Shown: positions 23,988-36,888 of the stretch, piece by piece
Numbering within the stretch: position 1 is the stretch's first letter
How the letters are laid out: each line of letters starts with the position of its first letter
Virus record (IMG/VR): IMGVR_UViG_3300034071_001431
Location: 32,001 to 96,000 of that record
DNA: 64,000 bases
Direction: 5' to 3' (one strand)
Source: a virus
Lineage: Duplodnaviria > Caudoviricetes
Program-made: the position numbers and the translations under genes
Notes under the pieces: generated by a model
Told to the model about the DNA's origin: nothing
What the model saw: only the letters and a program-made list of their open reading frames with translations
The model's database searches: none

Positions 23988-23988
23988 G

Positions 23989-24763: not shown

Positions 24764-24833
24764 TGGAGCCCCCGAACGGTATCGAACCGCTTCTTTCGGC
24801 TTCGAAGGCCAAAGTCCGTCCATCGGCGGGGGC
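24764..24833 (-). tRNA. tRNA-Arg(TCG), D-arm truncated
   Basis: 7-bp acceptor, loop CTTCGAA, TTCGATA T loop, CCA; only 70 nt. Confidence 0.7.
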
Positions 24834-24839
24834 ATTGTT

Positions 24840-24916
24840 TGGTAGAGATGGTAGGATTTGAACCTACGGTAGCTTGCGTATGAAGCAAGTGCATTAGGCC
24901 ACTATGCTACATCTCT
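24840..24916 (-). tRNA. tRNA-Met(CAT), probably elongator
   Basis: Cloverleaf, loop TTCATAC, CCA. Confidence 0.8.
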
Positions 24917-24926
24917 ATATCGAAAG

Positions 24927-25003
24927 TGGAGTATGTGACAGGAGTCGAACCTGCATAATACGGGGTTGCAATCCGCAGCTTATCCATTCAGCTACACACA
25001 TAC
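24927..25003 (-). tRNA. tRNA-Cys(GCA)
   Basis: Loop TTGCAAC, U73 discriminator, CCA. Confidence 0.85.
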
Positions 25004-25009
25004 ATTGTT

Positions 25010-25085
25010 TGGCACCCCCTGATGGACTCGAACCACCGAATGACAGGATCAAAACCTGTTGCCTTACCAGCTTGGCGAAGAGGGT
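25010..25085 (-). tRNA. tRNA-Gln(TTG)
   Basis: Loop TTTTGAT, GCCA end. Confidence 0.9.
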
Positions 25086-25236
25086 ATAAGTGATATTTTT
25101 AGAATGAGTTGGGAGTTATCCTCCCCGGATGTCCGTAATCCTAAGTTCGAGGTTGCAACTCCTTAGGGGTCACTAGTAAATTCTAGCTATAGCAGGGTGC
25201 GCATTGTTAAGTGGCGAGCCCGGACAATTCTTTGTT

Positions 25237-25311
25237 TGGTCCGGCGTGAGGGAATCGAACCCCCAACTAGGGAGTAGAAATCCCCTGTTATGTCCATTTA
25301 ACTAACACCGG
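25237..25311 (-). tRNA. tRNA-Arg(TCT)
   Basis: Stem GGGGA/TCCCT, loop TTTCTAC. Confidence 0.85.
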
Positions 25312-25317
25312 AATTAC

Positions 25318-25407
25318 TGGCGGAGAGTCAGGGAGTCGAACCCTGTCAACCGTATAAAGGGTTGTACACCTTAGCAGGGTGGTGCCTTACCGTCCGGCCC
25401 ACTCTCC
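25318..25407 (-). tRNA. tRNA-Ser(GCT)
   Basis: Long variable arm, loop CTGCTAA, GCCA. Confidence 0.9.
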
Positions 25408-25417
25408 AAATGCTATA

Positions 25418-25828
25418 TTACATTGTTACTTTAGGTTTTGCTTGTTTTTTATTATTTTTAAGTATGCCATATACAGCACCGCATAACCATTGCCCTTGTG
25501 CATCATACATCTTGTCACCGCTAATGTCCCAAAAGTATGTATTGGATTCACCGCTTGGATAAGCATTAATTAATGTGCCACGTTGCTTTAATAAGCATTC
25601 TTCAACATCAATAGCAGATACAAATACAAGGTCGGTGTTTACATATTGCATATTGACAAATATACCTGTACTTTTTTTAGTACCTTTTTTGTATTCTTTA
25701 ACCTTTACTGATTCAACATCAGCAATTAAACGTACTCCATCACCCGAATCAGTTACCACTGCCCAATTTTCAGCGTGTGCTGTGATTGTAAACAAAAGTG
25801 CTAACGATAATACTACAGTGCGTAACAT
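25418..25828 (-). CDS. Secreted/periplasmic hypothetical protein inside the tRNA array
   Basis: AAGGA RBS, signal peptide ending AHA, two Cys. Confidence 0.75.
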   Translation of the reverse strand: MLRTVVLSLALLFTITAHAENWAVVTDSGDGVRLIADVESVKVKEYKKGTKKSTGIFVNMQYVNTDLVFVSAIDVEECLLKQRGTLINAYPSGESNTYFWDISGDKMYDAQGQWLCGAVYGILKNNKKQAKPKVTM

Positions 25829-25846
25829 ATTATTCCTTAATAAAAT

Positions 25847-25936
25847 TGGCGGAAGCGGTGAGATTCGAACTCACGGAGCATTTCTGCTCGGCAGTTTTCA
25901 AGACTGCAGCCATAAACCAGACTCGACCACACTTCC
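25847..25936 (-). tRNA. tRNA-Ser(TGA)
   Basis: Long variable arm, loop CTTGAAA. Confidence 0.92.
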
Positions 25937-26081
25937 ATTTAAAATTTATTATAGCAAGTCACCGCCTTATTCGTCAACCGAAGTTGTGATCTTTTCCTTG
26001 CCTGACAGCTTTTTCAACTAGGGTTTTTCAATACTACCTGGATGCTGTTTACCCCAAACACGTAGCGGTACAAAGATTCTT

Positions 26082-26156
26082 TGGTGCATCGAGAAGGTAA
26101 CGATCCTTCCGCCTATCGCTTATCAAGCGAGTGCTCTACCTCTGAGCTACCGATGC
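26082..26156 (-). tRNA. tRNA-Ile(GAT)
   Basis: Loop TTGATAA; atypical T loop ATCGTTA. Confidence 0.85.
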
Positions 26157-26305
26157 ATATAAAAGGTTTTTGAGCGCCTAGCTATCTGTACCGGACAGCC
26201 TTGCTAGATTGTCTCGAATCGGAGAGATCAACATATTTCGCGCAATTCCATAATCCATTGATGCGGACGCTACTTAGGACTCAATCCAACCGTCTATCTC
26301 AAAAC

Positions 26306-26380
26306 TGGCTCCGAAGGGTGGGATCGAACCACCGACCAAAAGATTAACAGTCTTCTGCGCTACCGCTACGCTACTTCGGA
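26306..26380 (-). tRNA. tRNA-Asn(GTT)
   Basis: Loop CTGTTAA, GCCA. Confidence 0.92.
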
Positions 26381-26387
26381 ATTGACT

Positions 26388-26464
26388 TGGTGGAAGATAA
26401 AGGGATCGAACCTTTGACCTTGGCCTTGTAAGGGCCCTGCTCGTACCAGCTGAGCTAATCTTCC
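26388..26464 (-). tRNA. tRNA-Val(TAC)
   Basis: Loop CTTACAA, ACCA. Confidence 0.9.
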
Positions 26465-26471
26465 TATAATA

Positions 26472-26547
26472 TGGTGGAGGTGACAAGGATCGAACTTGCT
26501 ACATCCTGCTTGCAAAGCAGGCGCTCTCCCAAATGAGCTACACCCCC
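26472..26547 (-). tRNA. tRNA-Ala(TGC)
   Basis: G3-U70 pair, loop TTTGCAA. Confidence 0.93.
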
Positions 26548-26844
26548 GTATTTCTTTTCTATAATATATAATGTTCATCTACTTTGTTAGTAGTGGACTG
26601 TACCGCGCAGTCACTTTCTATAATGTTACACGATAGTAATAAGTGTTTTGCTACTTCGCACTACCAAAGCCCAAAACTGAGTAGTTACCCTGTCCAACTG
26701 TTTCCTTATGGGTGCAACAGTAAATAACCTACGCATTTCTCAAGTCGCTCACGTAATAAGCCTTGCAGTAGAGCGTATGCACTGTGCTAGTATGGTCATT
26801 AGCAATATACCCACTTTGATAAAGTAAAAGTGTAACCTGGTGTT

Positions 26845-26918
26845 TGGAGCGGGATATCAGAATCGAACTGATGACAGAAGTTTGGAAAACTCCAGTTTTG
26901 CCATTAAACTAATCCCGC
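26845..26918 (-). tRNA. tRNA-Gly(TCC)
   Basis: Loop TTTCCAA, TCCA. Confidence 0.92.
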
Positions 26919-26922
26919 ATGT

Positions 26923-27007
26923 TGGTGCGAATGGTCGGACTTGAACCGACATGCCCTGCGGCGAGGGATTTTAAGTCCCTTGTGTATACCAATTTCACCA
27001 CACTCGC
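26923..27007 (-). tRNA. tRNA-Leu(TAA)
   Basis: Long variable arm, loop CTTAAAA. Confidence 0.93.
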
Positions 27008-27015
27008 TTTACTAC

Positions 27016-27100
27016 TGGTGCGGCTGGTCAGACTCGAACTGACACGTCTTTCGACACGAGCTTCTAAGACTCGCATGGCTACCAATTACATCACAACCGC
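27016..27100 (-). tRNA. tRNA-Leu(TAG)
   Basis: Long variable arm, loop CTTAGAA. Confidence 0.92.
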
Positions 27101-27538
27101 TTTTTTCTTTCTGCCACCCTTACGATTAAGAGCAATTTTTCTTTTGTGCTCTTCAGTTAGGGTCTTACCTTTATTTGCTTTGCCGCCAGCAGATTTATTA
27201 CCTTTAGCGTTTAATCTACAAGCTTCTTCGTAACCATATTTGGCAACTGTTCTGTCCCAAATTGAATTGCCAGGGCCTTGATCTAATCTATTTTCTTGTG
27301 CTGTACCCCAATATAAATGATTAGGATTACTACACTTTTCGTTATTACAAGCATGACAGATATGTATCTTGTGCCCGCTCGGAATAGTTGTGTTTAGTAT
27401 ATGAGCCATTAAACCTTTACAATAACTAGACAATCCACCTTTTATAGGTCCGCCTCGTTCTATACAGGGTTCTGTTAAAACTAAGTGCTGCTGTCTTGCT
27501 TCTTTAGGCTGTGTAATGTATTCTTCTATTAATAACAT
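27086..27538 (-). mobile_element. Free-standing HNH homing endonuclease with NUMOD3-like tail
   Basis: ICHACNNEKCSNPNHLYWGTAQEN; KGKTLTEEHKRKIA. Confidence 0.8.
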
Positions 27539-27590
27539 TTCGTATCTCCTTATGTTTATTTAGCTAAACACAGTGAAAAACGTTAATTAA

Positions 27591-27617
27591 TGTGTATACC
27601 AATTCCACCAAAGAGGC
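27591..27617 (-). pseudogene. 5' fragment of a tRNA-Leu-like gene
   Basis: GCCTCTTTGGTGGAATTGGTATACACA matches the acceptor 5' strand and D arm of the neighbouring Leu(TAA); no anticodon or T arm follows. Confidence 0.7.
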
Positions 27618-27630
27618 ATTATTGTATTTT

Positions 27631-27706
<76 letters not shown>

Positions 27707-27715
27707 GATAAGATT

Positions 27716-27883
27716 TTATTTAACTAAGCGTGATTCCAATATAGCAATCCTGTTACGGAGTTTTGCTTTATCTTTACCTTTGCTAGCTTTATCCAACAAT
27801 GTATTTAGTTGGGTTAAATTCAAGGGACCTAATTTAGGTTTGCCTGTGCGTGTTTTCATTGAATCTGCTTTTTTAATTGCCAT
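27716..27883 (-). CDS. 55-aa basic hypothetical protein MAIKKADS...
   Basis: AGGGGA RBS; the longer ORF call overlaps tRNA-fMet. Confidence 0.65.
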   Translation of the reverse strand: MAIKKADSMKTRTGKPKLGPLNLTQLNTLLDKASKGKDKAKLRNRIAILESRLVK

Positions 27884-27901
27884 GTTATTCCCCTGTGTAT
27901 T

Positions 27902-27976
27902 TGGTTGCGGAGGACGGATTCGAACCGCCGATCTAAAGGTTATGAGCCTTCCGGGTTGCCACTTCCCCACCCCGCG
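27902..27976 (-). tRNA. Initiator tRNA-fMet(CAT)
   Basis: CGCGGGG start, C1:A72 mismatch, loop CTCATAA. Confidence 0.88.
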
Positions 27977-28152
27977 ATAAAAGTTCTGCGGCCAGTACAG
28001 GCCTGTTATCATGTGCAGAATCATGGCTAATTTCAAAGATGGAGTTTCACCATAGGCATTAACTACCCTTCGGACGGTTTGCTATTCTCTCCTAACCTCG
28101 AATACATAATGTAATAGCTTTCTTCCATGTACTTATTTGTTACTATCTATAC

Positions 28153-28181
28153 AGTGTAGCAGTTTTGATATGTGTTGTCAA
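28153..28181 (-). promoter_or_regulatory. Internal sigma70-type promoter in the tRNA array
   Basis: TTGACA-17-TACACT. Confidence 0.7.
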
Positions 28182-28382
28182 CTACTACTACTTAAATTAA
28201 ATGCTCTGACGGGTGTGCGCGGTAGACTCCAGCATCACTTAATGGACTACATGCCTTTCGCCGCTGGCCACACCCCGCTCTCGGATTGCCACCGCTAGTT
28301 TGGTAAGACTAGAACCACCCTTGGCTATCACACCACTTCTCATCGTGCGGGTCACAATATCCATTGATTAGATGGAACGTCC

Positions 28383-28456
28383 TGGCTCCGGTGGAGGGAA
28401 TCGAACCCCCACTAGTGGTTTTGGAGACCACCGCACTGCCATTATACTACACCGGA
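28383..28456 (-). tRNA. tRNA-Trp(CCA)
   Basis: Loop CTCCAAA, GCCA. Confidence 0.9.
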
Positions 28457-28470
28457 ATATACTTAAAACT

Positions 28471-28548
28471 TGGCGACACTTACGGAATTCGAATCCGTGA
28501 TCTCTACCGTGACAGGGTAGCGCATTAAGCCAGCTATGCTAAAGTGCC
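28471..28548 (-). tRNA. tRNA-Asp(GTC)
   Basis: Loop CTGTCAC, GCCA. Confidence 0.92.
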
Positions 28549-28606
28549 AAAGAACTTCCGAGCCGACTGCAAGCAGTATTCTACGGACGGAAGCCATATT
28601 AAAAGT

Positions 28607-28681
28607 TGGGTTGACTAACCGGGTTCGAACCGGTGATGAAGGAATCACAATCCTTAGTATTACCACTATACTATAGTCAAC
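28607..28681 (-). tRNA. tRNA-His(GTG)
   Basis: G-1:C73, loop TTGTGAT. Confidence 0.9.
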
Positions 28682-28767
28682 ATTGAAACCATACAGAAAC
28701 ACACTGTGGGCGTTGCTATGCAGCATACTAAATCTAGTCTAGTTGCGAACAATGTGTTTTCTTATGG

Positions 28768-28843
28768 TGGTAGGAGAGATGGGGTACGATCCCACAACCT
28801 CGAAATTAAAAGTTTCTTGCTCTGCCAGTTGAGCTACTCTCCC
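28768..28843 (-). tRNA. tRNA-Lys(TTT)
   Basis: Loop CTTTTAA; atypical T loop ATCGTAC. Confidence 0.88.
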
Positions 28844-28955
28844 ATATATGTATAAAGATGTTTAACGTGCCTATCCTTAATCATACATGGGATTAAAGAC
28901 GACACTAAAGTTTACCTCGCTTCATGTGTTGCTCCTATTAAATTTACTACAAAAC

Positions 28956-29041
28956 TGGTGGGCAAGGATGGAATCGAACCAACTCAACCAGGGGTAACAG
29001 ATTTACAGTCTGCTGCGCCTCTCCAACTGCGCCGCTTGCCC
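28956..29041 (-). tRNA. tRNA-Tyr(GTA)
   Basis: Loop CTGTAAA, long variable arm. Confidence 0.9.
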
Positions 29042-29130
29042 ATTGTAATACCATATTGAAGCATACTATAATTCTAAGTTTAACGGCCAGAGTTAACTTG
29101 GCATTAGAAACGGTACAATATGCTTCAATA

Positions 29131-29205
29131 TGGTATCGCGTAGCGGAATCGAACCGCTCCTAGTTGGATGAAAACCAACTGTTCTAACCGATAAACTAAC
29201 GCGAT
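29131..29205 (-). tRNA. tRNA-Glu(TTC)
   Basis: Stem GTTGG/CCAAC, loop TTTTCAT. Confidence 0.88.
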
Positions 29206-29218
29206 ATTGTAAAACTAT

Positions 29219-29234
29219 AAATTGTTAAAGAGCG
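29219..29234 (-). promoter_or_regulatory. rrn-type boxA antitermination element
   Basis: CGCTCTTTAACAATTT matches the proteobacterial rrn boxA (TGCTCTTTAACA). Confidence 0.8.
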
Positions 29235-29256
29235 TATTACTTAACTTCAAGTAGCT

Positions 29257-29284
29257 ATTATACACTCTTTAATTTATTTGTCAA
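29257..29284 (-). promoter_or_regulatory. Stable-RNA-type sigma70 promoter
   Basis: TTGACA-16-TATAAT upstream of boxA and tRNA-Glu. Confidence 0.8.
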
Positions 29285-29287
29285 TCT

Positions 29288-29350
29288 TTATTTTTGTCTT
29301 GCGTAAGATGGAAAGCCGAAGCCTCCAACATCAGTATCATGTTCGTTCAT
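29288..29350 (-). CDS. 20-aa peptide MNEHDTDVGGFGFPSYARQK
   Basis: AAAGGAG RBS 8 nt before ATG. Confidence 0.45.
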   Translation of the reverse strand: MNEHDTDVGGFGFPSYARQK

Positions 29351-29375
29351 GATCGTTTCTCCTTTAGCATTTTAT

Positions 29376-29673
29376 CCGCCTGCAATTAAGTATAAATCAG
29401 CGGTTATAACTTTAATTCCTGTAAGTACTACAGGGCGGGATAGTTATGTTTCCCTACTGCGCTCTAGATTGGGGGCTTCCTTGGATACTACGCCAGTACG
29501 CTATCCTCGTTCTCGTAGGGATTAAACCCCTTCCTGCCACACCTCAGTCCACAGGACTATACTTGCCTGTGTTCAAGTTAAATTGTTCCGCAAGCTCCAT
29601 TGTACGCTTCCCTATCCTAAGCCGGACACAGGCGTCTTGCGCTTCTAATGAGGTCGCAACCCTCTCTAGGCGG
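29376..29673 (-). ncRNA. Candidate ~300-nt structured ncRNA
   Basis: Closing helix CCGCCT/AGGCGG and many internal stems; GC-rich, no credible ORF. Confidence 0.55.
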
Positions 29674-29678
29674 TTTTC

Positions 29679-29756
29679 TGGTCTCTCGTGTAGGATTCGA
29701 ACCTACGTTCTTCTTGCTCCCAAAGCAAGTGCCATACCAGACTAGGCGAACGAGAG
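29679..29756 (-). tRNA. tRNA-Pro(TGG)
   Basis: Loop TTTGGGA, ACCA. Confidence 0.92.
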
Positions 29757-29966
29757 TTAAACGCACTCATATGAATGCGTATAATAAAGTACACTAATTG
29801 CTCTCTTAAGACATAATCCACATTGCGTGGGACCTAGTTGCCGATTAATGTACTTTATTATAACAAGTATTTTCTGTTCACAAAAGAACATGCCATCCAC
29901 TTGTCCGCCCATTTGCCTTTTTAACGTGTGTGCCGCGATCTCGTTTCGCATAACACGTACTGCTTA

Positions 29967-30095
29967 CTACTTAGAAAGTTTCTTTAAAAGATTAACATTT
30001 TCTGTTAATAGTTGGGTTACCCTTTCTAATTTTTGTTCTAATACCACTATCCTTTGTTCTGGAGTCGGCTTTTGAACAGTTTCTTTTTTATCCAT
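29967..30095 (-). CDS. 42-aa coiled-coil-like protein MDKKETVQKPTPEQRIVVLEQKLERVTQLLTENVNLLKKLSK
   Basis: Hand-translated; AAGGAG RBS; first gene after the attenuator. Confidence 0.6.
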   Translation of the reverse strand: MDKKETVQKPTPEQRIVVLEQKLERVTQLLTENVNLLKKLSK

Positions 30096-30113
30096 CTCCG
30101 GCTCCTTAAAAGC

Positions 30114-30143
30114 AAAAAACCCTAGTCTTTCGAGCTAGGGTTT
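30114..30143 (-). terminator. Intrinsic terminator (attenuator 3:4 hairpin)
   Basis: CCCTAG-CTCGAAAGA-CTAGGG-TTTTTT. Confidence 0.85.
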
Positions 30144-30191
30144 AAGTAAAAATTCATTTCTGATATAAAAATAAACGTTAACTTAAACCCT
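30137..30191 (-). promoter_or_regulatory. Antiterminator helix (2:3)
   Basis: AGGGTTTAAGT (30181-30191) is the exact 11-nt complement of ACTTAAACCCT (30137-30147), which overlaps the terminator 5' arm. Confidence 0.75.
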
Positions 30192-30303
30192 CATTATGCG
30201 GTGTGCGATCATTACTGCCTAATGTCTCAATCGCTGACCAATAAGACATCGTGGCAAGTATCTGCACTGGTGATTTCTTAAATTGATTACACGTTTTAAA
30301 CAT
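30178..30303 (-). CDS. 41-aa leader peptide containing all 20 amino acids
   Basis: MFKTCNQFKKSPVQILATMSYWSAIETLGSNDRTPHNEGLS; AAGGAAG RBS. Confidence 0.7.
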   Translation of the reverse strand: MFKTCNQFKKSPVQILATMSYWSAIETLGSNDRTPHNEGLS

Positions 30304-30344
30304 TTTGCTTTCGCTTCCTTTAATTAATTTCTTATTAAGCTGCT

Positions 30345-30373
30345 ATTATATATTCTATTTATACTCTTGTCAA
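30345..30373 (-). promoter_or_regulatory. Composite promoter: sigma70 plus embedded T4-type late motif
   Basis: TTGACA-17-TATAAT with TATAAATA in the spacer (30356-30363). Confidence 0.8.
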
Positions 30374-30397
30374 GTACTTTATCTATTTATTTATCAT

Positions 30398-31132
30398 TTA
30401 TTTTTGAACCGGTGTTATATCCGGTGATTTTTTGAATCTTTGTCTAGTTTTACCGTGCATTGTATAAACACTATTGTCCGGTACATCATCTAATACCAAA
30501 CTACCAATGTATACTATAGCATTATTACCTACAGTGAGCAAGTCTTTTTTTCTACTCGGTATTAATGTACTTCTAACTCCAATGCGAACATTGTTGCCAA
30601 CTTTAACATGTGCTAAAATACTTGCGGCGCCGATAATACTATTGCGCCCTACAGTTGTATCAACTAATCTTGTGTCCCAATCAATTACACTGTAATCACC
30701 TATTACTACATCTGATCCGATACTAGCATTAGACAAAATCATAATACCTTTGCCCAATGTTAAATTACGTTTACTATGAAACCAATGCACATCTTTTGAT
30801 ATTAAGTTTACTACTGTTACACCTGCCTTGTCGAGTAACTCTAACCGTTGACGTCTAAGTGTATCTGCATCAAATTCTTGCCCTAGTGCTTGTTTACCAT
30901 CCCACCAGTTTGCCGGAAAGAAATTGTATTTTGCCCATTTATTGTTAGGTACAAGTAATTCTTCTTCTGACCCTATTACAGGAATACCGCAAATCTCAGT
31001 GGTATTACCCCAATAGTGCTTATCTAGTATTCCGATAATTTTATATCCGCTATGTTTAGCAGTTTCTATTATATCGGCTAGGTTTTGTCTACTACCAACC
31101 AATACTAATTTCTTTTTAAACAAGTTAAACAT
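30398..31132 (-). CDS. NeuD/PglD-like sugar acetyltransferase
   Basis: N-terminal Rossmann-like domain plus hexapeptide repeats. Confidence 0.8.
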   Translation of the reverse strand: MFNLFKKKLVLVGSRQNLADIIETAKHSGYKIIGILDKHYWGNTTEICGIPVIGSEEELLVPNNKWAKYNFFPANWWDGKQALGQEFDADTLRRQRLELLDKAGVTVVNLISKDVHWFHSKRNLTLGKGIMILSNASIGSDVVIGDYSVIDWDTRLVDTTVGRNSIIGAASILAHVKVGNNVRIGVRSTLIPSRKKDLLTVGNNAIVYIGSLVLDDVPDNSVYTMHGKTRQRFKKSPDITPVQK

Positions 31133-31319
31133 CGTTGATTACATCAATTCCTGCTGTATCACCTAATTCACTTACTGCTTCTACTGCGGCTTTTTTCTTT
31201 GGTGCGCCCCAGAAGTTAGTTGTTGCTGTTTCGCTTTGTACACCGCGGGCAATTTGTTTGATTTCCCCACCTGTAGCTAAGAACTCTTGCATTGCTTGTT
31301 GGTATTCTTCGTTTGTCAT
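31125..31319 (-). CDS. Small hypothetical protein
   Basis: AAGGA RBS; FLATGGEIKQI motif. Confidence 0.65.
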   Translation of the reverse strand: MTNEEYQQAMQEFLATGGEIKQIARGVQSETATTNFWGAPKKKAAVEAVSELGDTAGIDVINDV

Positions 31320-31351
31320 ATTGTTCCTTAAGTTTTAATTAGTATAGCAAA

Positions 31352-32245
31352 TTAATTGTCAGCCGTCAACTGATTTTTTATTATATAGTTGTAGAGATAA
31401 TCAGCCCAACGTTCGTGCCCTTCTTCTCGCGGATGCCAACGTTTAAATAACAACGGGTTTACATTCATTAAGTCTCGACGTTCGTTAATCATGTTATACC
31501 ATGTCTCACCAACTTCTGTTTTAAACTTATTAGTTATTAATTCGTTGCGTTCTAAAAATTTTGCAATTGACCAAACTCCCGAACCCTGCATATAACAAGG
31601 ATTTAACGGAATATCAAATAATAAATCAATCCAATGTTTAGGAGTCTGCGTTGGGTGCGATATTATAGAATTAGTAAACGCAGGGCCAGCAATACACCTA
31701 ACTGTAGGATTTTGTTTCAACACCTGATCAATTCTTTGGTAGTGCCAAGTTTCGACATCTTGCAATACATCCATTATTGATTGATTAGCAGTGTCGGCAA
31801 ATGATGTTTTATACTGAGTGATCACTCGAGTTTCGTATTCACCGTCAAGTTCCCTACCATGATCACTAAATCCCAACACTGCTATAATCTTTTTAGTCTG
31901 CGGAACTAGTTGCGGCACTAACTTTTCAAATTCACCAATGACCCAATCCCAACTGCCCCCAGGTAAGGCTATCTGTACCCAATTGGCTCCTAACTTTTGT
32001 GCTAATGAATTACCAAACACCTTAGATATTCTATAGTCAGTATCACCACAGGCCTCTGAGCGTAGCCCATTGGACACTCCAAGTTCATCTCCCCAAGTCC
32101 AACTATCACCAATGGTCAGCAATGTGACATCGGACCCAACATTGCGATTTACAGTTAAATCGACCCAGGCCCAATTGATATCAAATCTAAGATCAAATTC
32201 ATTTACCATGTAGTCAGTCCTTGTGTCCATTGCCATTGAATCCAT
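31352..32245 (-). CDS. SGNH/GDSL-hydrolase-like protein
   Basis: IGDSWTWG block I; HP...GH..WA block V; start uncertain. Confidence 0.7.
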   Translation of the reverse strand: MDSMAMDTRTDYMVNEFDLRFDINWAWVDLTVNRNVGSDVTLLTIGDSWTWGDELGVSNGLRSEACGDTDYRISKVFGNSLAQKLGANWVQIALPGGSWDWVIGEFEKLVPQLVPQTKKIIAVLGFSDHGRELDGEYETRVITQYKTSFADTANQSIMDVLQDVETWHYQRIDQVLKQNPTVRCIAGPAFTNSIISHPTQTPKHWIDLLFDIPLNPCYMQGSGVWSIAKFLERNELITNKFKTEVGETWYNMINERRDLMNVNPLLFKRWHPREEGHERWADYLYNYIIKNQLTADN

Positions 32246-33033
32246 TCGTTGGTGTATTCCTGAAGTTGTTCAATTGAATAATTTCTTAAATTATCCTTTG
32301 GAAAATTTGGTCTAATAACAACAGATATTTCTTCCGAAAGTCTATTAGAATTATCTACCATTGATGCTAACCGACGAGCTAGTAGATAATCAAGCAAGAC
32401 CCAATGATTATTCATTTGAGTTGGCCAATACGTTAACGTATTGTTAAACTTTGACATTTTAACCGAGTTAGTATAATAGAATCTATTACCTATCACATCG
32501 TTTGTAAAAGAGTTAGCCCTATTATAAAAATCACCTATCTGCGGAAATGAAATTATATCACTATCATAGATAGTCCCTATTAGGTATTCAAACTCGTTAC
32601 ACATTACCATTGCATTGTACGTTGTGCTGTGTGGTTTATACAGATCAGGGCGCAATTCCATTACCTGATCGTATACAAAATTATTATCAAATTCGTGGCG
32701 CCGTTTTAAGGTATTAGCAATTTTGGCCAAGTACGATTGATAGTAAAATGTAATATCATGCCTAGGTAATACAGCCTGATTAATTATTTTATAATTTATT
32801 AAATTTCTATCTACGAATTTAGAAGTAATCTCAGCAGGATCTACTTTGCGTGTTGAACTAATCGAATGTTCCTCTGGCCACCAAAAATCTCGAGTATCTG
32901 CCCATGTAGCAAAATAGTAATCAACCTGAAGTGCGTTATCTTCAGCAAAAGCAAAGATATAGTCTGATGCTCGGTTCCAGGATCTTAGTTCACCACATAT
33001 TAGGACTGCTAGTTTTTTAATCTTCGCCGACAT
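32203..33033 (-). CDS. Hypothetical protein, glycosyltransferase-like
   Basis: LAVLICGELR start, YD.....RPD motif. Confidence 0.5.
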   Translation of the reverse strand: MSAKIKKLAVLICGELRSWNRASDYIFAFAEDNALQVDYYFATWADTRDFWWPEEHSISSTRKVDPAEITSKFVDRNLINYKIINQAVLPRHDITFYYQSYLAKIANTLKRRHEFDNNFVYDQVMELRPDLYKPHSTTYNAMVMCNEFEYLIGTIYDSDIISFPQIGDFYNRANSFTNDVIGNRFYYTNSVKMSKFNNTLTYWPTQMNNHWVLLDYLLARRLASMVDNSNRLSEEISVVIRPNFPKDNLRNYSIEQLQEYTNEWIQWQWTQGLTTW

Positions 33034-33424
33034 AAAATTCGTATCCTAAACGATTAATTAAAAATATTATTTTTTCTGCTAATAACAATTGTGTATCATT
33101 GTCTACTTCTTTAAAATTCAGACGAGTAAAATTTACTTTGTATAAACTACCCAATACAGAAAAGACATGTGGCTTACAATAAAAGGAATCTGTATAATCA
33201 TCTGATATATAATACACCCCATTGTGGTGTAATTGTTTAACAAAAATACTATCATAATTTATAATAGGTGTATTCACTAGCAAGCACACTAGCTTCACAG
33301 GTAATTGGTCAAATAGGATTTTTTCATCCATTTGAAGTGCTAGGTCAGCTAGTTGTTTGCTTGGTGATTCCTTATCCGACTCTAACAGTGCCATCCCTGT
33401 ATCAGTTAGTAATGCTAATTTCAT
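33017..33424 (-). CDS. Hypothetical protein
   Basis: Overlapping operon ORF. Confidence 0.55.
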   Translation of the reverse strand: MKLALLTDTGMALLESDKESPSKQLADLALQMDEKILFDQLPVKLVCLLVNTPIINYDSIFVKQLHHNGVYYISDDYTDSFYCKPHVFSVLGSLYKVNFTRLNFKEVDNDTQLLLAEKIIFLINRLGYEFYVGED

Positions 33425-34419
33425 ATATGATCACCTAAATCATTACTATTTCGTTCTAAATTGATTGCTATTGCACTTGGAGCAGGATTAGTAGTAGCAT
33501 AATCATTTATTAATATCCGTTGAGAATGGTGTAGGCCTGCTAGTAATCTAAAATTACTAAATCCAATATTTTTCAACATCTGGTCTATTGCATTATAAAA
33601 TTTTTGCGGGCGAGCAGTTACAAAAATAAGTTCGACACCTTGTCCTTGTAATTCTAAAAGTTTATTACATGTTTCAGTTAATATCTCGGGTGCATCTATA
33701 TAATATGGCGGAAAGAATTCTGATTGGTTTTTAATTATTACACCATCTATATCACAAAATATAGTTTTAAAGTTGCGATTGTATTTAACAAACTTAGTTA
33801 AATTACCCAAATCAACATAATTAGTAACAGTAACAGGCATAAAGTTTTCAGCAGATAACATTTGATTTATTACATGCGAGATGTATACTTCGTGGTCAAC
33901 TGGAATTAACTGTACTGCATCAACAAACTGTTTACTACTTAAAAAGCCATATCCTCCTACACAGGCAATGTCACTGATGCGATTTTTTTCAGCAATATTA
34001 GTAACACAATCATTTTTTATATGCACATAGCTTGACATTGGGTCAGTTTGATTATCTTTAACGCATATAAAATTACCGCAAGGTAATGTGGTATTAAACA
34101 AGCTATCACAATCTTTAATGAATATAGCACGATCTGTGATATTACGTATAGCTGCAACAGCTGAATGTGCAGGGCCATTACTAGGGTTATCTAATACAGT
34201 GATTGACATATTATTGTATATATTACTAAGTGTAGCAGATACATTAAATTTTTCATCGTGCTCACGTAAAATTACAACATGGATGTAGTCAATCTGTGCG
34301 ACATATAAATCAATAACATGCTCAATCATGAATCTACCATCATACATAGTTAACCAATATTTTGGTCTATTAGTAGCATATCTAAGGCTTTTGCCTGCGG
34401 CTAGTAATACTAAATCCAT
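33421..34419 (-). CDS. Nucleotidyltransferase/GT-A domain fused to a HAD phosphatase
   Basis: LAAGKSLRY...PK, DCD; C-terminal CDIDGV, VTAR, IND. Confidence 0.8.
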   Translation of the reverse strand: MDLVLLAAGKSLRYATNRPKYWLTMYDGRFMIEHVIDLYVAQIDYIHVVILREHDEKFNVSATLSNIYNNMSITVLDNPSNGPAHSAVAAIRNITDRAIFIKDCDSLFNTTLPCGNFICVKDNQTDPMSSYVHIKNDCVTNIAEKNRISDIACVGGYGFLSSKQFVDAVQLIPVDHEVYISHVINQMLSAENFMPVTVTNYVDLGNLTKFVKYNRNFKTIFCDIDGVIIKNQSEFFPPYYIDAPEILTETCNKLLELQGQGVELIFVTARPQKFYNAIDQMLKNIGFSNFRLLAGLHHSQRILINDYATTNPAPSAIAINLERNSNDLGDHI

Positions 34420-35162
34420 AATTGATTTATCTGCATAATTAAAAAATTGCGGTCTTTCATTGATGTACAATACGGAATCACACGAAGTAACATAAAAATT
34501 AATAAAAAATTATTACTAGTATACGAATTTATATCTTTTACAGCGGAATTAATATAGTTGATCTTATCAGCCACATCACTGTGTATAGTTACGTTCCGTG
34601 TAAACCACAGACATTCAGTATCTTGTCTTATTTTAGCAGAATCAAATGCTACTGAATTAAGGTTAGTATGATTAGCATCAATAAGATAAAAATTGTCGTT
34701 CCAATAGATTATATTTTCAAGTGTTAAGTCACCGTGATATATGCCACATGGCACGTGTGTTGGTAGTTGGTCGTATAATTCGTGTAATTTAAATAAAAGC
34801 CCCGGAAGTTTGCACCGTTCTAATTGCTCAAACTTTTCTTGGATATGTAACCTAATATCTGTTACTATAGATTGTTTTTCAAATGTATGTAATATAGTTG
34901 ACAAAAACTCAATTAATTTATGTATGTCTTTGTCTTGTTGTATATAATCCGCCATACTAAGACCATCTAAATAACGCATTACTACCCGAGTAGGGCTAAT
35001 AAAATAATAGTCAGGGATTTTAATTTGCAATTTAGCAAGTGTTTGTAATACGGCGTAATCTAAGTCGAGTTGCGACCCATTGCTTTTAATTATAACTGGA
35101 ACATTATTATTAACTGTTAATTCTAATTTACATCCGGAATTACCTGTTAGTTGAATTGCCAT
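34410..35162 (-). CDS. APH/choline-kinase-like phosphotransferase
   Basis: GNSG loop, HGDLTLENI, LID; start moved to MAIQL to avoid the tRNA. Confidence 0.8.
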   Translation of the reverse strand: MAIQLTGNSGCKLELTVNNNVPVIIKSNGSQLDLDYAVLQTLAKLQIKIPDYYFISPTRVVMRYLDGLSMADYIQQDKDIHKLIEFLSTILHTFEKQSIVTDIRLHIQEKFEQLERCKLPGLLFKLHELYDQLPTHVPCGIYHGDLTLENIIYWNDNFYLIDANHTNLNSVAFDSAKIRQDTECLWFTRNVTIHSDVADKINYINSAVKDINSYTSNNFLLIFMLLRVIPYCTSMKDRNFLIMQINQLWI

Positions 35163-35180
35163 TTTTTTACCTGAAATGTT

Positions 35181-35257
35181 TGGTGGGCCTTGATGGACTT
35201 GAACCATCGACCAATGGATTATGAGTCCACTGCTCTGACCAACTGAGCTAAAGGCCC
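35181..35257 (-). tRNA. tRNA-Ile2(CAT), lysidine type
   Basis: GGGCCTTTAGCTCAG start typical of Ile2, loop CTCATAA. Confidence 0.8.
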
Positions 35258-35267
35258 TGCTAACTTA

Positions 35268-35534
35268 TTACCTGCTGGTTTTACCAACTTTATCTAAGTA
35301 TTCTTTACCGTACTTACCTGCTTCTACGTCAAGCAATGCTTGTACAACAGGAAGGTTTGCATACTTAGGTTGTGCTGTGGTTGATCCTGCATTACGTGAT
35401 GCTATTACACGACTTTTTGCAATTTCGTGGCCACGTACACTTGCAGCTAATATTAAATTAAATCGGTTACCGTCAAATGCGGCATCGCAATTATCAATAT
35501 TGTATTGTTCAACTGATGCTATTTTGTTTGCCAT
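35268..35534 (-). CDS. rpoZ: RNA polymerase omega subunit homologue
   Basis: GNRFNLILAASVRGHEI and PVVQALLDVEAGK match the omega pattern NRF.L...A..RA / P...AL.EI..G. Confidence 0.75.
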   Translation of the reverse strand: MANKIASVEQYNIDNCDAAFDGNRFNLILAASVRGHEIAKSRVIASRNAGSTTAQPKYANLPVVQALLDVEAGKYGKEYLDKVGKTSR

Positions 35535-35589
35535 GATATACCCTAAGTTGTTATTTAAAGTACTATTGTAACACGGAATTACCTAGATG

Positions 35590-36888
35590 TCAACGTCTTT
35601 CTCGCCTATGTTCGGATATTTGTGAACCCGGACGAGTAGCACGGTCAATAACTGTTGCAGGAGTAGATACTGCGCCAGTTGGTCTAATCCCGGTAGTCGG
35701 GGTGGTCCCATCTATTTGTTTACGTATTGCATCAGCAGTTGCTTTAGCGGCTTTCTTTTCTGCGGTTGCGGCTTTTTTAGCTGTTGCGGCTGCGGCATTA
35801 GCACCAAACGTAGTTGGAATTATTTCCATTTGTGGATATGGTAAACGTACATCAGCAATACTAGTTATGTATGCTGTGCCGGCATGTAAACGTAATGTAC
35901 TGTCTGCTAATTCTTCAGCATCTTTAAAATAAACAGTGTTGATCGGTTCAGTTGTTAAATTAATGTATAACACACCTTCGTCATCTTTCTTACTCATGTA
36001 GTAGTTGAAACTAGCTTTAGCATACGCTTGCATTGCAACACCAGTACTGCCCGATGCAATTGCATCTGCTATAGAATCAATCGAAGATTTATCTGATGTC
36101 GTCCCGCCAAATATCATAGCAATAACTTGTTTACACATAGCAACAAAGTCTGTATTGTCACTTAATTGTTGCGCTATATCGCAGGCTGCCGCAATACTTA
36201 ACCCACTCTTTGGTAGTATTGTTTTAATCTCAGGGTTATTAGCAACATAAGCATTTAAATCACGAGCCGCACGTTCAAAACCTTCTGCTGGACGTACTTC
36301 TTGGTCAGTGAAACGACCTGCACCGCCATCTGTAGTTTTTGCTTCAATCTTGCGGCCATTAATTAATAAATCGCCTTTATCTGGCTTGTTAATATTTTTA
36401 CTTAATACACTTAATCCAAACTCGCCCTTGCCTTGGCCTAATGCTTGTATACGCATAACATCATTAACTAGTTCACTGATAGCAGGGTTAGTAGAATAAC
36501 TTGCAATAATATCGGAAAAGTTGTTTGAACCTTTACTTAATAGTTTATCACGGTTAACAAGTTTGTCTTCGCGCCACAGTGAAAATAGTTCATCACGTTG
36601 GGCTGGTGTTACATCCATACTTACTATGTATCGTGCCAGCATTTTTTGTGCCGCAGTAACAGTTGGGTCGTTGATACGAGCAAGCTCGCCATTAATCATA
36701 CCAACTCGTCCACCTGCATTAACATGAGTTAGTAATTCTTCAATTTCACGTAATGCTCGTGCAGTTACGCTATCGTCTGGCAGATCTTTAATCTTGCCAG
36801 CGATAACTGATTTCATTGCTTCTAACTCGTCTGTGTTTGGCAGAGCAGTTTCAAATAAGGGTGTAATGAGGTCTATAAATTTGCGCAT
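35590..36888 (-). CDS. Late protein with putative PD-(D/E)XK nuclease motif
   Basis: GKGE...GDLLINGRKIEAK; TAAATA motif just upstream. Confidence 0.5.
   Translation of the reverse strand: MRKFIDLITPLFETALPNTDELEAMKSVIAGKIKDLPDDSVTARALREIEELLTHVNAGGRVGMINGELARINDPTVTAAQKMLARYIVSMDVTPAQRDELFSLWREDKLVNRDKLLSKGSNNFSDIIASYSTNPAISELVNDVMRIQALGQGKGEFGLSVLSKNINKPDKGDLLINGRKIEAKTTDGGAGRFTDQEVRPAEGFERAARDLNAYVANNPEIKTILPKSGLSIAAACDIAQQLSDNTDFVAMCKQVIAMIFGGTTSDKSSIDSIADAIASGSTGVAMQAYAKASFNYYMSKKDDEGVLYINLTTEPINTVYFKDAEELADSTLRLHAGTAYITSIADVRLPYPQMEIIPTTFGANAAAATAKKAATAEKKAAKATADAIRKQIDGTTPTTGIRPTGAVSTPATVIDRATRPGSQISEHRRERR

What the first reader, a model, noticed from the sequence alone, without database searches (positions are those of the whole stretch)
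30114..30373. Pan-amino-acid leader-peptide attenuator at the head of a phage tRNA array
SEEN (minus strand): a TTGACA-17-TATAAT promoter, an AAGGAAG RBS, then a 41-codon ORF (30178-30303, below the ORF-track cutoff), MFKTCNQFKKSPVQILATMSYWSAIETLGSNDRTPHNEGLS. It contains all 20 amino acids and 30 different codons, and samples alternative codons: AAA/AAG, CAA/CAG, ATA/ATT, CTT/TTA, TCA/TCT/AGT, CCA/CCG, GCC/GCG, ACA/ACG, GGC/GGT. Its last 11 sense nucleotides (AGGGTTTAAGT) are the exact complement of ACTTAAACCCT about 33 nt downstream, which overlaps the 5' arm of an intrinsic terminator (CCCTAG-CTCGAAAGA-CTAGGG-TTTTTT). Downstream lie a 42-aa ORF and the 25-tRNA array. KNOWN: trp/his/thr attenuators use this logic, but sense one or two amino acids through codon runs. 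INFERENCE: a ribosome reaching the stop masks the antiterminator, so transcription terminates. Stalling at any codon (starvation, or tRNA cleavage by a host anticodon nuclease) frees it and allows read-through. That would be a general tRNA-shortage sensor inducing replacement tRNAs. CAVEATS: internal promoters at 29257 and 28153 could drive most tRNAs independently, and stalls at the last codons (e.g. His36) may still mask the antiterminator.
Basis: partly seen in the sequence, partly recalled or inferred. Interest (0 to 1): 0.95.

Follow-up and report, generated by a model that had tools for sequence, protein, structure and literature searches.

The report
Translation-sensing switch before phage tRNA genes
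A giant lake phage and its relatives put a tiny translated test gene, wired to a switchable transcription stop, in front of their block of tRNA genes, so the phage probably makes more of these RNAs when ribosomes fall behind.

Summary
I found homologous leaders on about 35 further phage or metagenome contigs, plus 9 divergent peptides. In them the promoter hexamers, ribosome-binding site, start codon and reading frame are kept. All 5 clean indels inside the frame are multiples of three, against 2 of 18 outside it. Both the terminator and the competing antiterminator hairpin show compensatory base changes. The element always heads a structured RNA, then tRNA-Pro, then the array. I read it as a ribosome-dependent (leader-peptide) transcription attenuator whose untranslated default is read-through.

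The all-amino-acid claim is only partly upheld. Of 30 family peptides, 20 have all 20 residues and 10 have 19: nine lack Cys and one lacks Phe. That is more complete than an ancestry-aware null predicts. However, some lone residues lie where a stall could not be sensed. One Cys-less leader sits in a phage that has a tRNA-Cys gene. Internal promoters also bypass the switch.

My searches found no published account. Earlier notes of this scan report the same family, and a wider class of such leaders, on other DNA.

The parts
30345..30373 (-). Sigma-70-type promoter (TTGACA, 17 nt, TATAAT) preceded by an A/T-rich block.
   Evidence: It matches 12 of 12 consensus positions. Both hexamers are kept in all aligned relatives while the spacer sequence varies. 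It is one of 11 perfect sites in the 114-kb record, all on this strand.
30304..30338 (-). 5' leader with the ribosome-binding site AAGGAAG (30314-30320), 10 nt before the ATG.
   Evidence: Read directly from the sequence. The AGGAA core and a 10-12 nt gap to the ATG are kept in close and divergent relatives.
30178..30303 (-). Leader ORF of 41 codons plus a TAA stop.
   Evidence: Listed. Homologues of 39-50 codons occur on relatives. All 5 clean indels within the ORF are multiples of three, against 2 of 18 outside it. There is no PHROGs family match.
30221..30258 (-). Block of 38 nt that is nearly invariant at the nucleotide level. Its centre (30226-30243) is unchanged even in divergent relatives.
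   Evidence: Among 20 distinct leaders aligned the block shows one synonymous change, two single-codon replacements and one 3-nt insertion. The free third positions allowed by the search patterns never varied in the divergent loci. The reason is only partly explained.
30200..30239 (-). Conserved hairpin inside the ORF (30239-30230 pairs with 30209-30200). Candidate RNA-polymerase pause hairpin.
   Evidence: This pairing is predicted in the divergent loci L070 and L107. The same two arms are present in the window by my reading. No covariation is available because both arms are invariant. The function is inferred.
30137..30191 (-). Antiterminator hairpin. Its 5' strand is the last 11 sense bases, the stop codon and the bases after it. 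Its 3' strand ends inside the terminator's 5' arm.
   Evidence: Predicted by folding. 92.9% of 340 cells are paired, and 6 of 20 pairs changed on both sides. No shuffle of 500 reached the observed paired share, pairs or cells changed on both sides, or covariation score; the count of further pair types was reached by 473 of 500. RNAalifold predicts this helix unaided. Each tail type binds its own partner best.
30114..30142 (-). Intrinsic terminator: an 8-bp stem plus 2 inner pairs with a GAAA loop, then six T.
   Evidence: Folding energy is -12.5 kcal/mol. Across 11 distinct variants, 100% of 86 cells are paired and 3 of 8 pairs changed on both sides. The loops differ freely.
29967..30095 (-). 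42-codon ORF with its own AAGGAG site, directly after the terminator. Present in only some relatives.
   Evidence: It is absent from the loci in which the structured RNA follows the terminator directly.
29757..29962 (-). Conserved structured RNA between the switch and tRNA-Pro. It is the first product common to all relatives.
   Evidence: The alignments show helices with compensatory and G-U changes (my reading). It has no Rfam match at E up to 1 and occurs once in the record. It co-occurs with the leader in 19 of 20 viral loci found by anchoring on it; the 20th, L038, is cut inside the leader.
29679..29756 (-). tRNA-Pro (TGG), the first tRNA after the switch.
   Evidence: tRNA-Pro is the first tRNA ARAGORN called after the leader in 11 of the 15 leader-bearing loci scanned. 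Two others start with different tRNAs (L023 and L028 with tRNA-Asp, L027 with tRNA-Met), and L014's held stretch has no tRNA downstream. In L003 an 83-nt tRNA-Met call precedes tRNA-Pro.
29257..29284 (-). Internal perfect promoter (16-nt spacer) that can drive tRNA-Glu and later genes without the switch.
   Evidence: L022 likewise has internal perfect promoters at 2120, 4574 and 5989.

Best explanation
This is a ribosome-dependent (leader-peptide) transcription attenuator at the head of the phage's tRNA region.

HOW IT WORKS
1. A strong host-type promoter starts an RNA whose short ORF is translated.
2. The end of that ORF, its stop codon and the following bases form the 5' strand of a long hairpin. 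The 3' strand of that hairpin contains the C-run of the terminator's 5' arm.
3. If no ribosome occupies the ORF's end when RNA polymerase makes the terminator, the long hairpin holds that arm. The terminator cannot form, and transcription runs on into the structured RNA, tRNA-Pro and the array.
4. If a ribosome has reached the end of the ORF, it has melted the hairpin's 5' strand. The terminator then forms and the RNA ends at about 30114.

WHAT IT READS
Nothing pairs with the ORF's end to pre-empt the antiterminator, so the untranslated default is read-through. The switch therefore reports how fast, or whether, ribosomes get through the leader. Output falls when decoding is efficient and rises when it is slow or blocked.

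SHOWN VERSUS INFERRED
- Shown by sequence and comparison: the anatomy, the frame constraint, and both helices with covariation.
- Inferred: actual translation, the kinetics, the pause hairpin, and the direction and size of the response.
For: - Anatomy in the window.
- Relatives were found independently by a neighbouring protein, by the peptide and by DNA patterns.
- Promoter hexamers, ribosome-binding site and start codon are conserved while the spacer, the N-terminal codons and the loops vary.
- All 5 clean indels in the ORF are multiples of three, against 2 of 18 outside it. By my own arithmetic this gives a Fisher P of about 6e-4.
- Antiterminator: the long hairpin is predicted in 20 of 20 distinct leaders. 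In 19 of 20 it includes the G-run paired with the terminator's C-run.
- Antiterminator covariation: 92.9% of cells paired, and 6 of 20 pairs changed on both sides. One pair shows the series G-C (6 sequences), G-U (6), A-U (5). No shuffle of 500 reached the observed paired share, both-side changes or covariation score. Slid controls pair 25-65%.
- RNAalifold chooses this helix unaided.
- Duplex energies are -17 to -26 kcal/mol for cognate pairs (mean -21.7) and -9 to -17 between the three tail types.
- Terminator: 11 variants all fold at -9.1 to -14.6 kcal/mol. 100% of 86 cells are paired and 3 of 8 pairs changed on both sides.
- One base shared by both helices changed A to G in L107 and L042. 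Its antiterminator partner changed T to C, while its terminator partner stayed T, giving G-U.
- The leader precedes the array in every leader-bearing locus that holds DNA downstream. tRNA-Pro is the first tRNA in 11 of 15.
Against: - There is no direct evidence of translation or of condition-dependent termination.
- In the window's type, the minimum-energy fold of the whole leader contains the terminator plus a shortened antiterminator. Exclusion therefore rests on kinetics there: the antiterminator covers only 6 of the 8 bases of the terminator arm.
- In the two long-tailed relatives (L012, L024) the stop codon lies about 22 nt past the pairing segment. A terminating ribosome would no longer cover that segment.
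- Internal perfect promoters mean most tRNAs can be made without the switch.
- The ribosome-binding site sits 10-12 nt from the ATG, which is longer than optimal.
- The RNA-library contigs that bridge the terminator also run on upstream of the promoter, so they show neither a start nor an end.
Confidence: 0.72

Rival explanations
1. The leader's composition is itself selected to contain (nearly) every amino acid. Shortage or cleavage of any one tRNA then stalls the ribosome and induces the array, making it a general tRNA-supply gauge. This extends the best explanation rather than replacing it.
For: - 20 of 30 family peptides have all 20 residue types and 10 of 30 have 19. None has fewer.
- Among 13 clusters at 29-71% identity, 13 have 19 or more types, where 2.0-3.9 are expected. 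Seven are complete, where 0.3-0.84 are expected (this null assumes independence).
- Under a null that keeps each peptide's retained consensus residues, the 13 peptides lack 6 types in total. The simulated mean is 23.0 (genome composition) or 18.3 (the family's own free-position composition), with P at most 5e-5.
- In 28 of 29 cases where a peptide lacks a residue at the family's usual column, the same residue occurs elsewhere, against 19.4 expected.
- His sits at four different columns and Cys at nine.
- The arrays encode tRNAs for all 20 amino acids.
Against: - Cys is absent from 9 of 30 peptides and Phe from 1.
- The phage behind L018, which has a Cys-less leader, carries a tRNA-Cys gene 99% identical to the window's.
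- The window's only His (codon 36) lies within about 5 codons of the pairing segment. So does the only Cys of L013 and L012. A stall there should mask that segment and give termination (geometry read).
- Arg-TCT and Gly-TCC have no codon in the window's leader.
- The leader's codon rarity is unremarkable, at the 13.6th percentile.
- The statistics treat related sequences as independent, and some 'compensations' are alignment offsets.
- 18 residue types sit in conserved columns that may be kept for other reasons.
Confidence: 0.45
2. The conserved middle of the peptide (the invariant Tyr-Trp, Ile-Glu and nearby Asp-Arg-x-Pro columns) is a nascent-chain sensor. It would stall the ribosome in the exit tunnel in response to some ligand or state, as TnaC, SecM or Erm leaders do (named from recall). 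That programmed stall, not general decoding speed, would set the switch.
For: Five columns are invariant and several more nearly so across peptides that are otherwise 29-71% identical. The variable parts are the N-terminus, which would already be outside the tunnel, and the tail, whose sequence is dictated by RNA pairing.
Against: - The same stretch is frozen at synonymous positions too. That points to an RNA- or DNA-level constraint rather than a purely peptide one.
- No known arrest motif was matched by any tool.
- A stall near the Pro codon would cover the pairing segment and favour termination.
Confidence: 0.1
3. This is an ordinary small gene with its own terminator. The long hairpin around the stop codon only stabilises the 3' end, and nothing is regulated.
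For: A 41-aa ORF with a promoter, a ribosome-binding site and a terminator is a complete gene. In the window's type both hairpins can coexist in the minimum-energy fold if the long one loses 5 base pairs.
Against: - In all three tail types, which encode different residues, a G-run is placed so that the hairpin reaches into the terminator's C-run.
- In the commonest type it covers the whole 5' arm, and the minimum-energy fold lacks the terminator (L015).
- The peptide's N-terminus and tail drift freely.
- The unit always sits directly before untranslated RNA genes that have no promoter of their own in between.
Confidence: 0.07
4. This is an untranslated RNA switch. The invariant core would bind a ligand, a protein or a tRNA, in the manner of a riboswitch or a T-box, and the open frame would be incidental.
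For: The core is invariant at the nucleotide level, including positions that are unpaired in the predicted hairpins.
Against: - Frame-preserving indels occur in 5 of 5 cases.
- The start codon and ribosome-binding site are conserved, and 30 variants contain no stop codon.
- No Rfam family, T-box included, matches the leader at E up to 1.
Confidence: 0.05

Closest known systems
Leader-peptide attenuators of enterobacterial amino-acid operons (trpL, hisL, pheL; multivalent thrL and ilvL). Named from established knowledge; the papers were seen only as search listings.
   Same: A promoter-proximal short ORF, an intrinsic terminator before the regulated genes, and an alternative hairpin that takes the terminator's 5' arm. 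The position of the translating ribosome decides which fold forms. A ribosome that finishes the ORF gives termination.
   Different: - There is no run of codons for one or two amino acids. Instead the residue set is near-complete, with 30 different codons.
- No segment pairs with the ORF's end to pre-empt the antiterminator, so the untranslated default is read-through rather than termination.
- The leader is longer, at 39-50 codons.
- The regulated products are tRNAs and a structured RNA, not biosynthetic enzymes.
- It is carried by a virus.
Leaders that sense general ribosome progress: drug-induced stalling leaders of macrolide-resistance operons (PMC4335068, seen as a listing) and the pyrBI coupling attenuator (recalled).
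   Same: The signal is how far the ribosome has travelled relative to RNA polymerase, not the supply of one named amino acid.
   Different: Those respond to an antibiotic or to UTP-dependent polymerase pausing. In pyrBI a close-following ribosome prevents termination, which is the opposite sign to the one proposed here.
The long tRNA-gene array (trn operon) of Anabaena sp. PCC 7120 (PMC8421152 and PMC10272220; abstracts read).
   Same: A horizontally mobile array of about 23-26 tRNA genes is kept low and induced when the translation machinery is impaired. The logic of spare tRNAs on demand matches.
   Different: Control there is by a protein repressor, TrcR (abstract), in a cell. The words 'attenuat', 'leader peptide' and 'terminator' do not occur in PMC8421152. 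Here the proposed sensor is a cis-acting translated leader in a phage.
T-box riboswitches.
   Same: An antiterminator-versus-terminator choice that reports tRNA status.
   Different: A T-box binds one uncharged tRNA directly and is not translated. No Rfam match was found in the leader at E up to 1, and this element carries a frame-constrained ORF.
Earlier notes of this scan on other DNA: the same leader family in other phage genomes, and 'codon-matched' leaders before other phages' tRNA blocks.
   Same: Same architecture and same proposed logic. Four notes share sequence words with this window.
   Different: These are unchecked AI notes on other genomes. I did not test their claims about leaders whose amino acids match the tRNA block that follows.

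Membership tests
Leader-peptide (ribosome-mediated) transcription attenuator | A short ORF with a ribosome-binding site and start codon close to the promoter, kept open by selection. | tested here: met
   The frame is kept in 30 variants. All 5 ORF indels are multiples of three, against 2 of 18 outside.
Leader-peptide (ribosome-mediated) transcription attenuator | An intrinsic terminator between the leader ORF and the regulated genes. | tested here: met
   A hairpin followed by 5-6 T in all 19 sequences folded. 100% of 86 cells are paired and 3 of 8 pairs are compensatory.
Leader-peptide (ribosome-mediated) transcription attenuator | An alternative (antiterminator) helix that uses the terminator's 5' arm and whose other strand lies in or at the end of the ORF. 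| tested here: met
   The overlap always includes the C-run of the terminator arm.
Leader-peptide (ribosome-mediated) transcription attenuator | Read-through responds to ribosome stalling or translation of the leader. | not testable with these tools
   This needs reporters, Term-seq or a cell-free system. The RNA-library contigs cannot show ends.
Leader-peptide (ribosome-mediated) transcription attenuator | Clustered regulatory codons for the amino acid(s) whose pathway is controlled. | tested here: not met
   There are no codon runs: 30 different codons in 41, and all 20 residue types. This is the main departure from the classical family.
Leader-peptide (ribosome-mediated) transcription attenuator | An upstream segment (the 1:2 pairing) that captures the antiterminator's 5' strand when the leader is not translated and that doubles as a pause hairpin. 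| tested here: inconclusive
   Conserved hairpins exist inside the ORF. None pairs with the ORF's end, and there is no covariation because the arms are invariant.
T-box riboswitch | A match to the T-box covariance model (stem I, specifier, T-box sequence). | tested here: not met
   No Rfam match other than tRNAs (plus weak opposite-strand matches lying on tRNA genes) in 21500-36000 at E up to 1.
Regulatory nascent (arrest) peptides | Site-specific ribosome arrest caused by the nascent chain. | not testable with these tools
   Only conservation of the peptide core is seen. Its synonymous sites are frozen as well.

The most novel reading that the evidence does not exclude
The leader is a general gauge of aminoacyl-tRNA supply. 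Its peptide carries no function of its own and is kept by selection only to hold (nearly) every amino acid. Depletion or cleavage of almost any tRNA, whether by starvation, host shut-off or an anticodon nuclease, would then delay the ribosome and switch on the phage's own replacement tRNAs and an accompanying structured RNA. This would make it a self-correcting feedback loop for a viral translation kit.
Probability: 0.45. Interest if true: 0.92.

Novelty: new variant of a known kind. Interest (0 to 1): 0.8.

Why it matters
Why phages carry tRNA genes, and when they use them, is an old question. Recent work ties phage tRNAs to escape from host defences that cut tRNAs (PMC10264068 and PMC11555353, seen as listings and abstract starts). 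How such arrays are regulated is largely unknown.

A translated leader wired to a terminator in front of the array would mean the phage measures decoding performance directly and adjusts its tRNA output. That would be trp-operon logic turned on the translation apparatus itself.

The element is short, uses host-type signals, and has natural variants with compensatory changes. The idea is therefore directly testable with reporters or a cell-free system. It also offers a possible compact part for sensing translation stress.

Tried and rejected
SEARCHES THAT GAVE NOTHING
- BLAST of the region and of the upstream acetyltransferase against the phage collection found no match. The tail sheath only places the record among distant jumbo phages at about 40% identity.
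- PHROGs gave nothing for the leader peptides. Pfam was used only for neighbouring genes.
- Rfam gave nothing in the leader or in the downstream element.

COMPARISONS THAT DID NOT HELP
- More distant relatives of the acetyltransferase (L004-L007) have no tRNAs beside it, so that route gave no distant leaders.
- The idea that TTGTTATAAT inside the downstream element is an extended -10 promoter is rejected. L070 reads CATAAT there without the TG, and both arms of the helices through it covary.
- The strong hairpin first seen in the core is rejected as a family-wide element, because the divergent loci cannot form it.
- Codon rarity of the leader is not significant: mean RSCU 1.28 against 1.44 +/- 0.15, the 13.6th percentile.
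- I tested whether Cys-less leaders go with arrays that lack tRNA-Cys. Only 1 of 5 records matched, and it was a Cys-less one (L018's record). The positive control (L022's record) did not match, so misses mean nothing.

RNA LIBRARIES
- Only assembled contigs were available.
- Contigs from two studies bridge the terminator: X2 record 8 (2033 nt, depth 79) and X1 record 6 (502 nt). Both run on upstream of the promoter, so they show neither transcript starts nor ends. The material could even be DNA.
- Stretches without cover (for example 30364-30424) are not evidence.

ROWS DROPPED
- P0008 (4352 aa) and P0018 (492 aa), as long repetitive proteins.
- All loci whose ORF around the motif was unrelated to the family.
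- L032 and L037 from the structure work, because the held DNA ends before the terminator.
- The two long-tailed sequences (L012, L024) from alignment A6, because their tail length differs.
- L014's terminator was mis-picked and redone.

Supplementary files of papers were not opened.
Full report
WHAT IS IN THE WINDOW. All features lie on the minus strand. A perfect TTGACA, 17 nt, TATAAT promoter sits at 30373-30345. It is followed by AAGGAAG (30320-30314) and an ATG at 30303. A 41-codon ORF ends with TAA at 30180-30178. The last 11 sense bases (30191-30181) are the exact complement of 30147-30137. That stretch overlaps the 5' arm of a hairpin (30142-30118) followed by six T. The peptide has all 20 amino acids and 30 different codons. 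Downstream lie a 42-codon ORF, about 200 nt of non-coding sequence, tRNA-Pro, and then 23 more tRNA genes to 24451, plus tRNA-Phe at 22085.

HOW UNUSUAL IS THE COMPOSITION. A 41-residue peptide drawn from this genome's composition is complete with P = 0.0043. Among sliding windows of the long ORFs, 105 of 27,801 are complete. Of 286 ORFs of 35-50 aa in the 114-kb record, 2 are complete, and the other overlaps tRNA-Trp. In one genome the property is therefore only notable because the ORF had been singled out for other reasons.

WHAT THE GENOME IS. The window is part of a 114,034-base viral record judged about one third complete. Its tail sheath is about 40% identical to those of jumbo phages such as PA5oct and Atu_ph07. 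Neither the region nor the neighbouring hexapeptide acetyltransferase matches any deposited phage.

RELATIVES. I found relatives by four routes.
- The acetyltransferase gave L003.
- The peptide gave L009-L013 and proteins P0001-P0007.
- A degenerate DNA pattern for the core gave 24 viral loci.
- An anchor in the downstream element gave 20 loci. Nineteen were already known and the 20th, L038, is cut inside the leader.

Excluding two copies of the window's own record, this gives 32 entries and 22 distinct sequences. Some loci are the same contig fetched twice.

Two further searches reached divergent members.
- A profile search of 1.84 billion representative proteins gave 12 hits. Nine were new short peptides of 39-55 aa. 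I dropped two long repetitive proteins.
Seven of these proved to be divergent family members: L070, L077, L126, L042, L043, L090 and L107.

THE ORF IS CONSTRAINED AS A READING FRAME. The promoter hexamers, the AGGAA ribosome-binding core and the ATG are kept. The promoter spacer, the N-terminal codons and the loops vary. In the 20-sequence alignment, the five clean gap runs inside the ORF have lengths 3, 3, 3, 3 and 6. A sixth run of 8 lies where the long-tailed type's ORF runs on. Of 18 gap runs outside the ORF, only 2 are multiples of three. By my own arithmetic this gives P of about 6e-4. None of 30 variants has an internal stop. This is the pattern expected of a leader that must be translated but whose product is largely free to change.

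TWO COMPETING HELICES, BOTH WITH COVARIATION.
- Folding. The leader without the terminator's 3' arm folds into a long hairpin from the ORF's end to the terminator's 5' arm, with the stop codon inside its 5' strand. The hairpin appears in 20 of 20 distinct leaders. In 19 of 20 it includes the G-run paired to the terminator's C-run. L020 is the exception.
- Three tail types. There are three kinds of ORF tail, encoding different residues, and each is complementary to its own downstream partner. Cognate duplexes score -17 to -26 kcal/mol (mean -21.7) and between-type duplexes -9 to -17. The permutation P there is inflated by relatedness.
- Antiterminator counts. On a 17-sequence alignment (A6), 92.9% of 340 cells are paired. 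Six of 20 pairs changed on both sides, including a G-C, G-U, A-U series with 6, 6 and 5 sequences. None of 500 shuffles reached the observed paired share, both-side changes or covariation score. The count of further pair types was reached by 473 of 500. Slid controls pair 25-65%.
- Independent prediction. RNAalifold predicts this helix unaided, even with the terminator included.
- Terminator counts. Eleven distinct terminator variants fold at -9.1 to -14.6 kcal/mol. All 86 cells are paired, and 3 of 8 pairs changed on both sides.
- A shared base. One base belonging to both helices changed A to G in L107 and L042. Its antiterminator partner changed with it, and its terminator partner gives G-U.
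- Extent of overlap. In the commonest type the antiterminator covers the whole 5' arm, and the minimum-energy fold of the full leader lacks the terminator (L015). In the window's type it covers 6 of 8 bases, and the minimum-energy fold has the terminator plus a shortened antiterminator. There the choice must be kinetic.

WHAT THE SWITCH CONTROLS.
- In the loci with enough DNA, the leader is followed by a conserved structured RNA and then the array. tRNA-Pro is the first tRNA in 11 of the 15 leader-bearing loci scanned, and some arrays are very compact, with 20 tRNAs in 2.8 kb in L022.
- The 42-codon ORF is present in only some relatives.
- The structured RNA has helices with compensatory and G-U changes (my reading). 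It has no Rfam match and occurs once in the record.
- Internal perfect promoters exist in the window (29284; also 28181 at 10 of 12 and 25977 at 11 of 12) and in L022 (2120, 4574, 5989).
- The switch's exclusive products are therefore the structured RNA and the first one to four tRNAs. It can only add to the output of the later ones.
- L022 has two perfect promoters in tandem before the leader. L012 and L013 show a second promoter-like site upstream (my reading).

THE FROZEN CORE. A 38-nt block (30258-30221) is almost invariant at the nucleotide level in 20 distinct leaders. Its central 18 nt keep the same synonymous choices even in divergent loci, although the search patterns left those positions free. 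A hairpin (30239-30230 with 30209-30200) can form in all members and may be a pause site that lets the ribosome catch up. It explains only part of the invariance. This remains unexplained.

IS NEAR-COMPLETENESS SELECTED?

For:
- Of 30 family peptides, 20 are complete and 10 have 19 types. Nine lack Cys, one lacks Phe, and none has fewer than 19. L043 and L090 are cut by contig ends, and P0010 was trimmed to the common start.
- Among 13 cluster representatives (29-71% identity), all 13 have at least 19 types, against 2.0-3.9 expected. Seven are complete, against 0.3-0.84 expected. This holds five invariant residues fixed and assumes independence.
- A null that keeps each peptide's retained consensus residues and randomises the rest predicts 23.0 or 18.3 missing types in total. 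Six are observed. The simulation reached this in 0 and 1 of 20,000 runs.
- In 28 of 29 cases a residue lost from its usual column is present elsewhere, against 19.4 expected. Some of these are alignment offsets.
- For seven clear rare-residue cases that I picked by eye, my hand calculation gives P of about 0.04.

Against:
- Cys is often missing.
- L018's phage has a Cys-less leader but a tRNA-Cys gene.
- The window's only His, and the only Cys of L013 and L012, lie within a few codons of the pairing segment, so a stall there should look like completed translation.
- Two tRNA species have no codon in the leader.
- The sequences are related, so the P values are optimistic.

I put this reading at about 0.45.

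EXPRESSION. RNA-library contigs from two studies cover the leader and bridge the terminator. They also run on upstream of the promoter, so they show no starts or ends.

MECHANISM. Shown: the anatomy, the frame constraint, and both helices. Inferred: the rest of the following sequence.
1. RNA polymerase starts at about 30338 and may pause after the conserved hairpin.
2. A ribosome translates the leader.
3. If the ribosome is at or near the stop codon when the terminator's arms emerge, the antiterminator's 5' strand is inside the ribosome, the terminator forms, and the RNA ends at about 30114.
4. If the ribosome is late or absent, the antiterminator forms first and transcription continues.

Because nothing competes for the ORF's end, failure of translation gives read-through. 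This suits a device meant to restore decoding capacity.

COMPARISON WITH WHAT IS KNOWN. The element works like the leader-peptide attenuators of amino-acid operons. It fails one of their defining features (codon runs), is inconclusive on another (the 1:2 pairing), and controls RNA genes. In logic, the nearest thing in print is the Anabaena tRNA array induced by translational stress. That array is controlled by the repressor TrcR (abstracts).

WHAT IS IN PRINT. Full-text searches found no paper describing a leader-peptide attenuator before tRNA genes. The searches combined leader peptide, attenuation or attenuator, tRNA genes or arrays, phage, and 'all 20 amino acids'. The words are absent from PMC10264068 and PMC8421152. 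Subscription journals are not covered by this library.

EARLIER NOTES OF THIS SCAN. Earlier notes report the same family and a wider class of such leaders on other genomes. I list them but did not test them, and they did not move my scores.

VERDICT. This is a real, conserved, ribosome-dependent attenuator at the head of a phage tRNA region (confidence about 0.72). It is a new variant of a known kind. The all-amino-acid gauge is an attractive reading with moderate statistical support and several contrary details.

Noticed in passing
window 29757-29962 (minus strand); also L012 3215-3410, L070 about 2050-2290, L107: A structured RNA of about 200 nt sits between the switch and tRNA-Pro in all relatives. 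It has several helices with compensatory changes, a hairpin with a conserved U-rich loop, a long AU-rich stem enclosing a variable insert, and a final small hairpin. It has no Rfam match and its function is unknown.
   Followed up: partly
L042 and L107, variable insert of the structured RNA (shown): In these two divergent relatives the insert within the long stem carries a hairpin that reads like a tRNA T-arm. The window's insert does not.
   Followed up: no
L003 7378-7460; L012 about 3415-3500: An odd 83-nt tRNA-like gene, called tRNA-Met (CAT) by ARAGORN in L003, sits between the structured RNA and tRNA-Pro in some relatives. It is absent from the window.
   Followed up: no
whole 114-kb record (window coordinates -30460 to 60060): Eleven perfect TTGACA, 16-18 nt, TATAAT promoters lie on the minus strand and none on the plus strand. 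This suggests heavy reliance on host RNA polymerase for this gene block.
   Followed up: no
L022 1082-1182; L012 2850-2960; L013 940-1050: L022 has two perfect promoters in tandem about 70 nt apart before the leader. L012 and L013 show a similar second promoter-like site upstream in the sequences (my reading). The window has only one.
   Followed up: no
window 30398-31132: A hexapeptide-repeat acetyltransferase gene lies between the upstream tRNA-Met region and the leader in the window. In L003 it lies between a tRNA-Met/tRNA-Arg pair and the leader. In L009 it is missing and the leader promoter follows the upstream small ORF directly. It is an insertion or deletion at this spot.
   Followed up: partly
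window 27086-27538: A 150-aa ORF with weak HNH / His-Me endonuclease matches sits inside the tRNA array. Homing endonucleases are known in other phages' tRNA regions (a passage of PMC8421152 seen).
   Followed up: no
window 21288-22052 and 22365-22859: Fatty-acid-desaturase-like and dual-specificity-phosphatase-like ORFs lie just beyond the array (the phosphatase match is below Pfam's cut-off).
   Followed up: no
window about 28309-28431 (minus strand): This is the only other ORF of 35-50 aa in the record with all 20 amino acids. It overlaps tRNA-Trp and a GC-rich structured stretch, and is probably not a gene.
   Followed up: no
loci (for example L040, L050): Two unrelated small-ORF families in other viral contigs share the six-residue motif of the leader core. 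This looks like coincidence.
   Followed up: no
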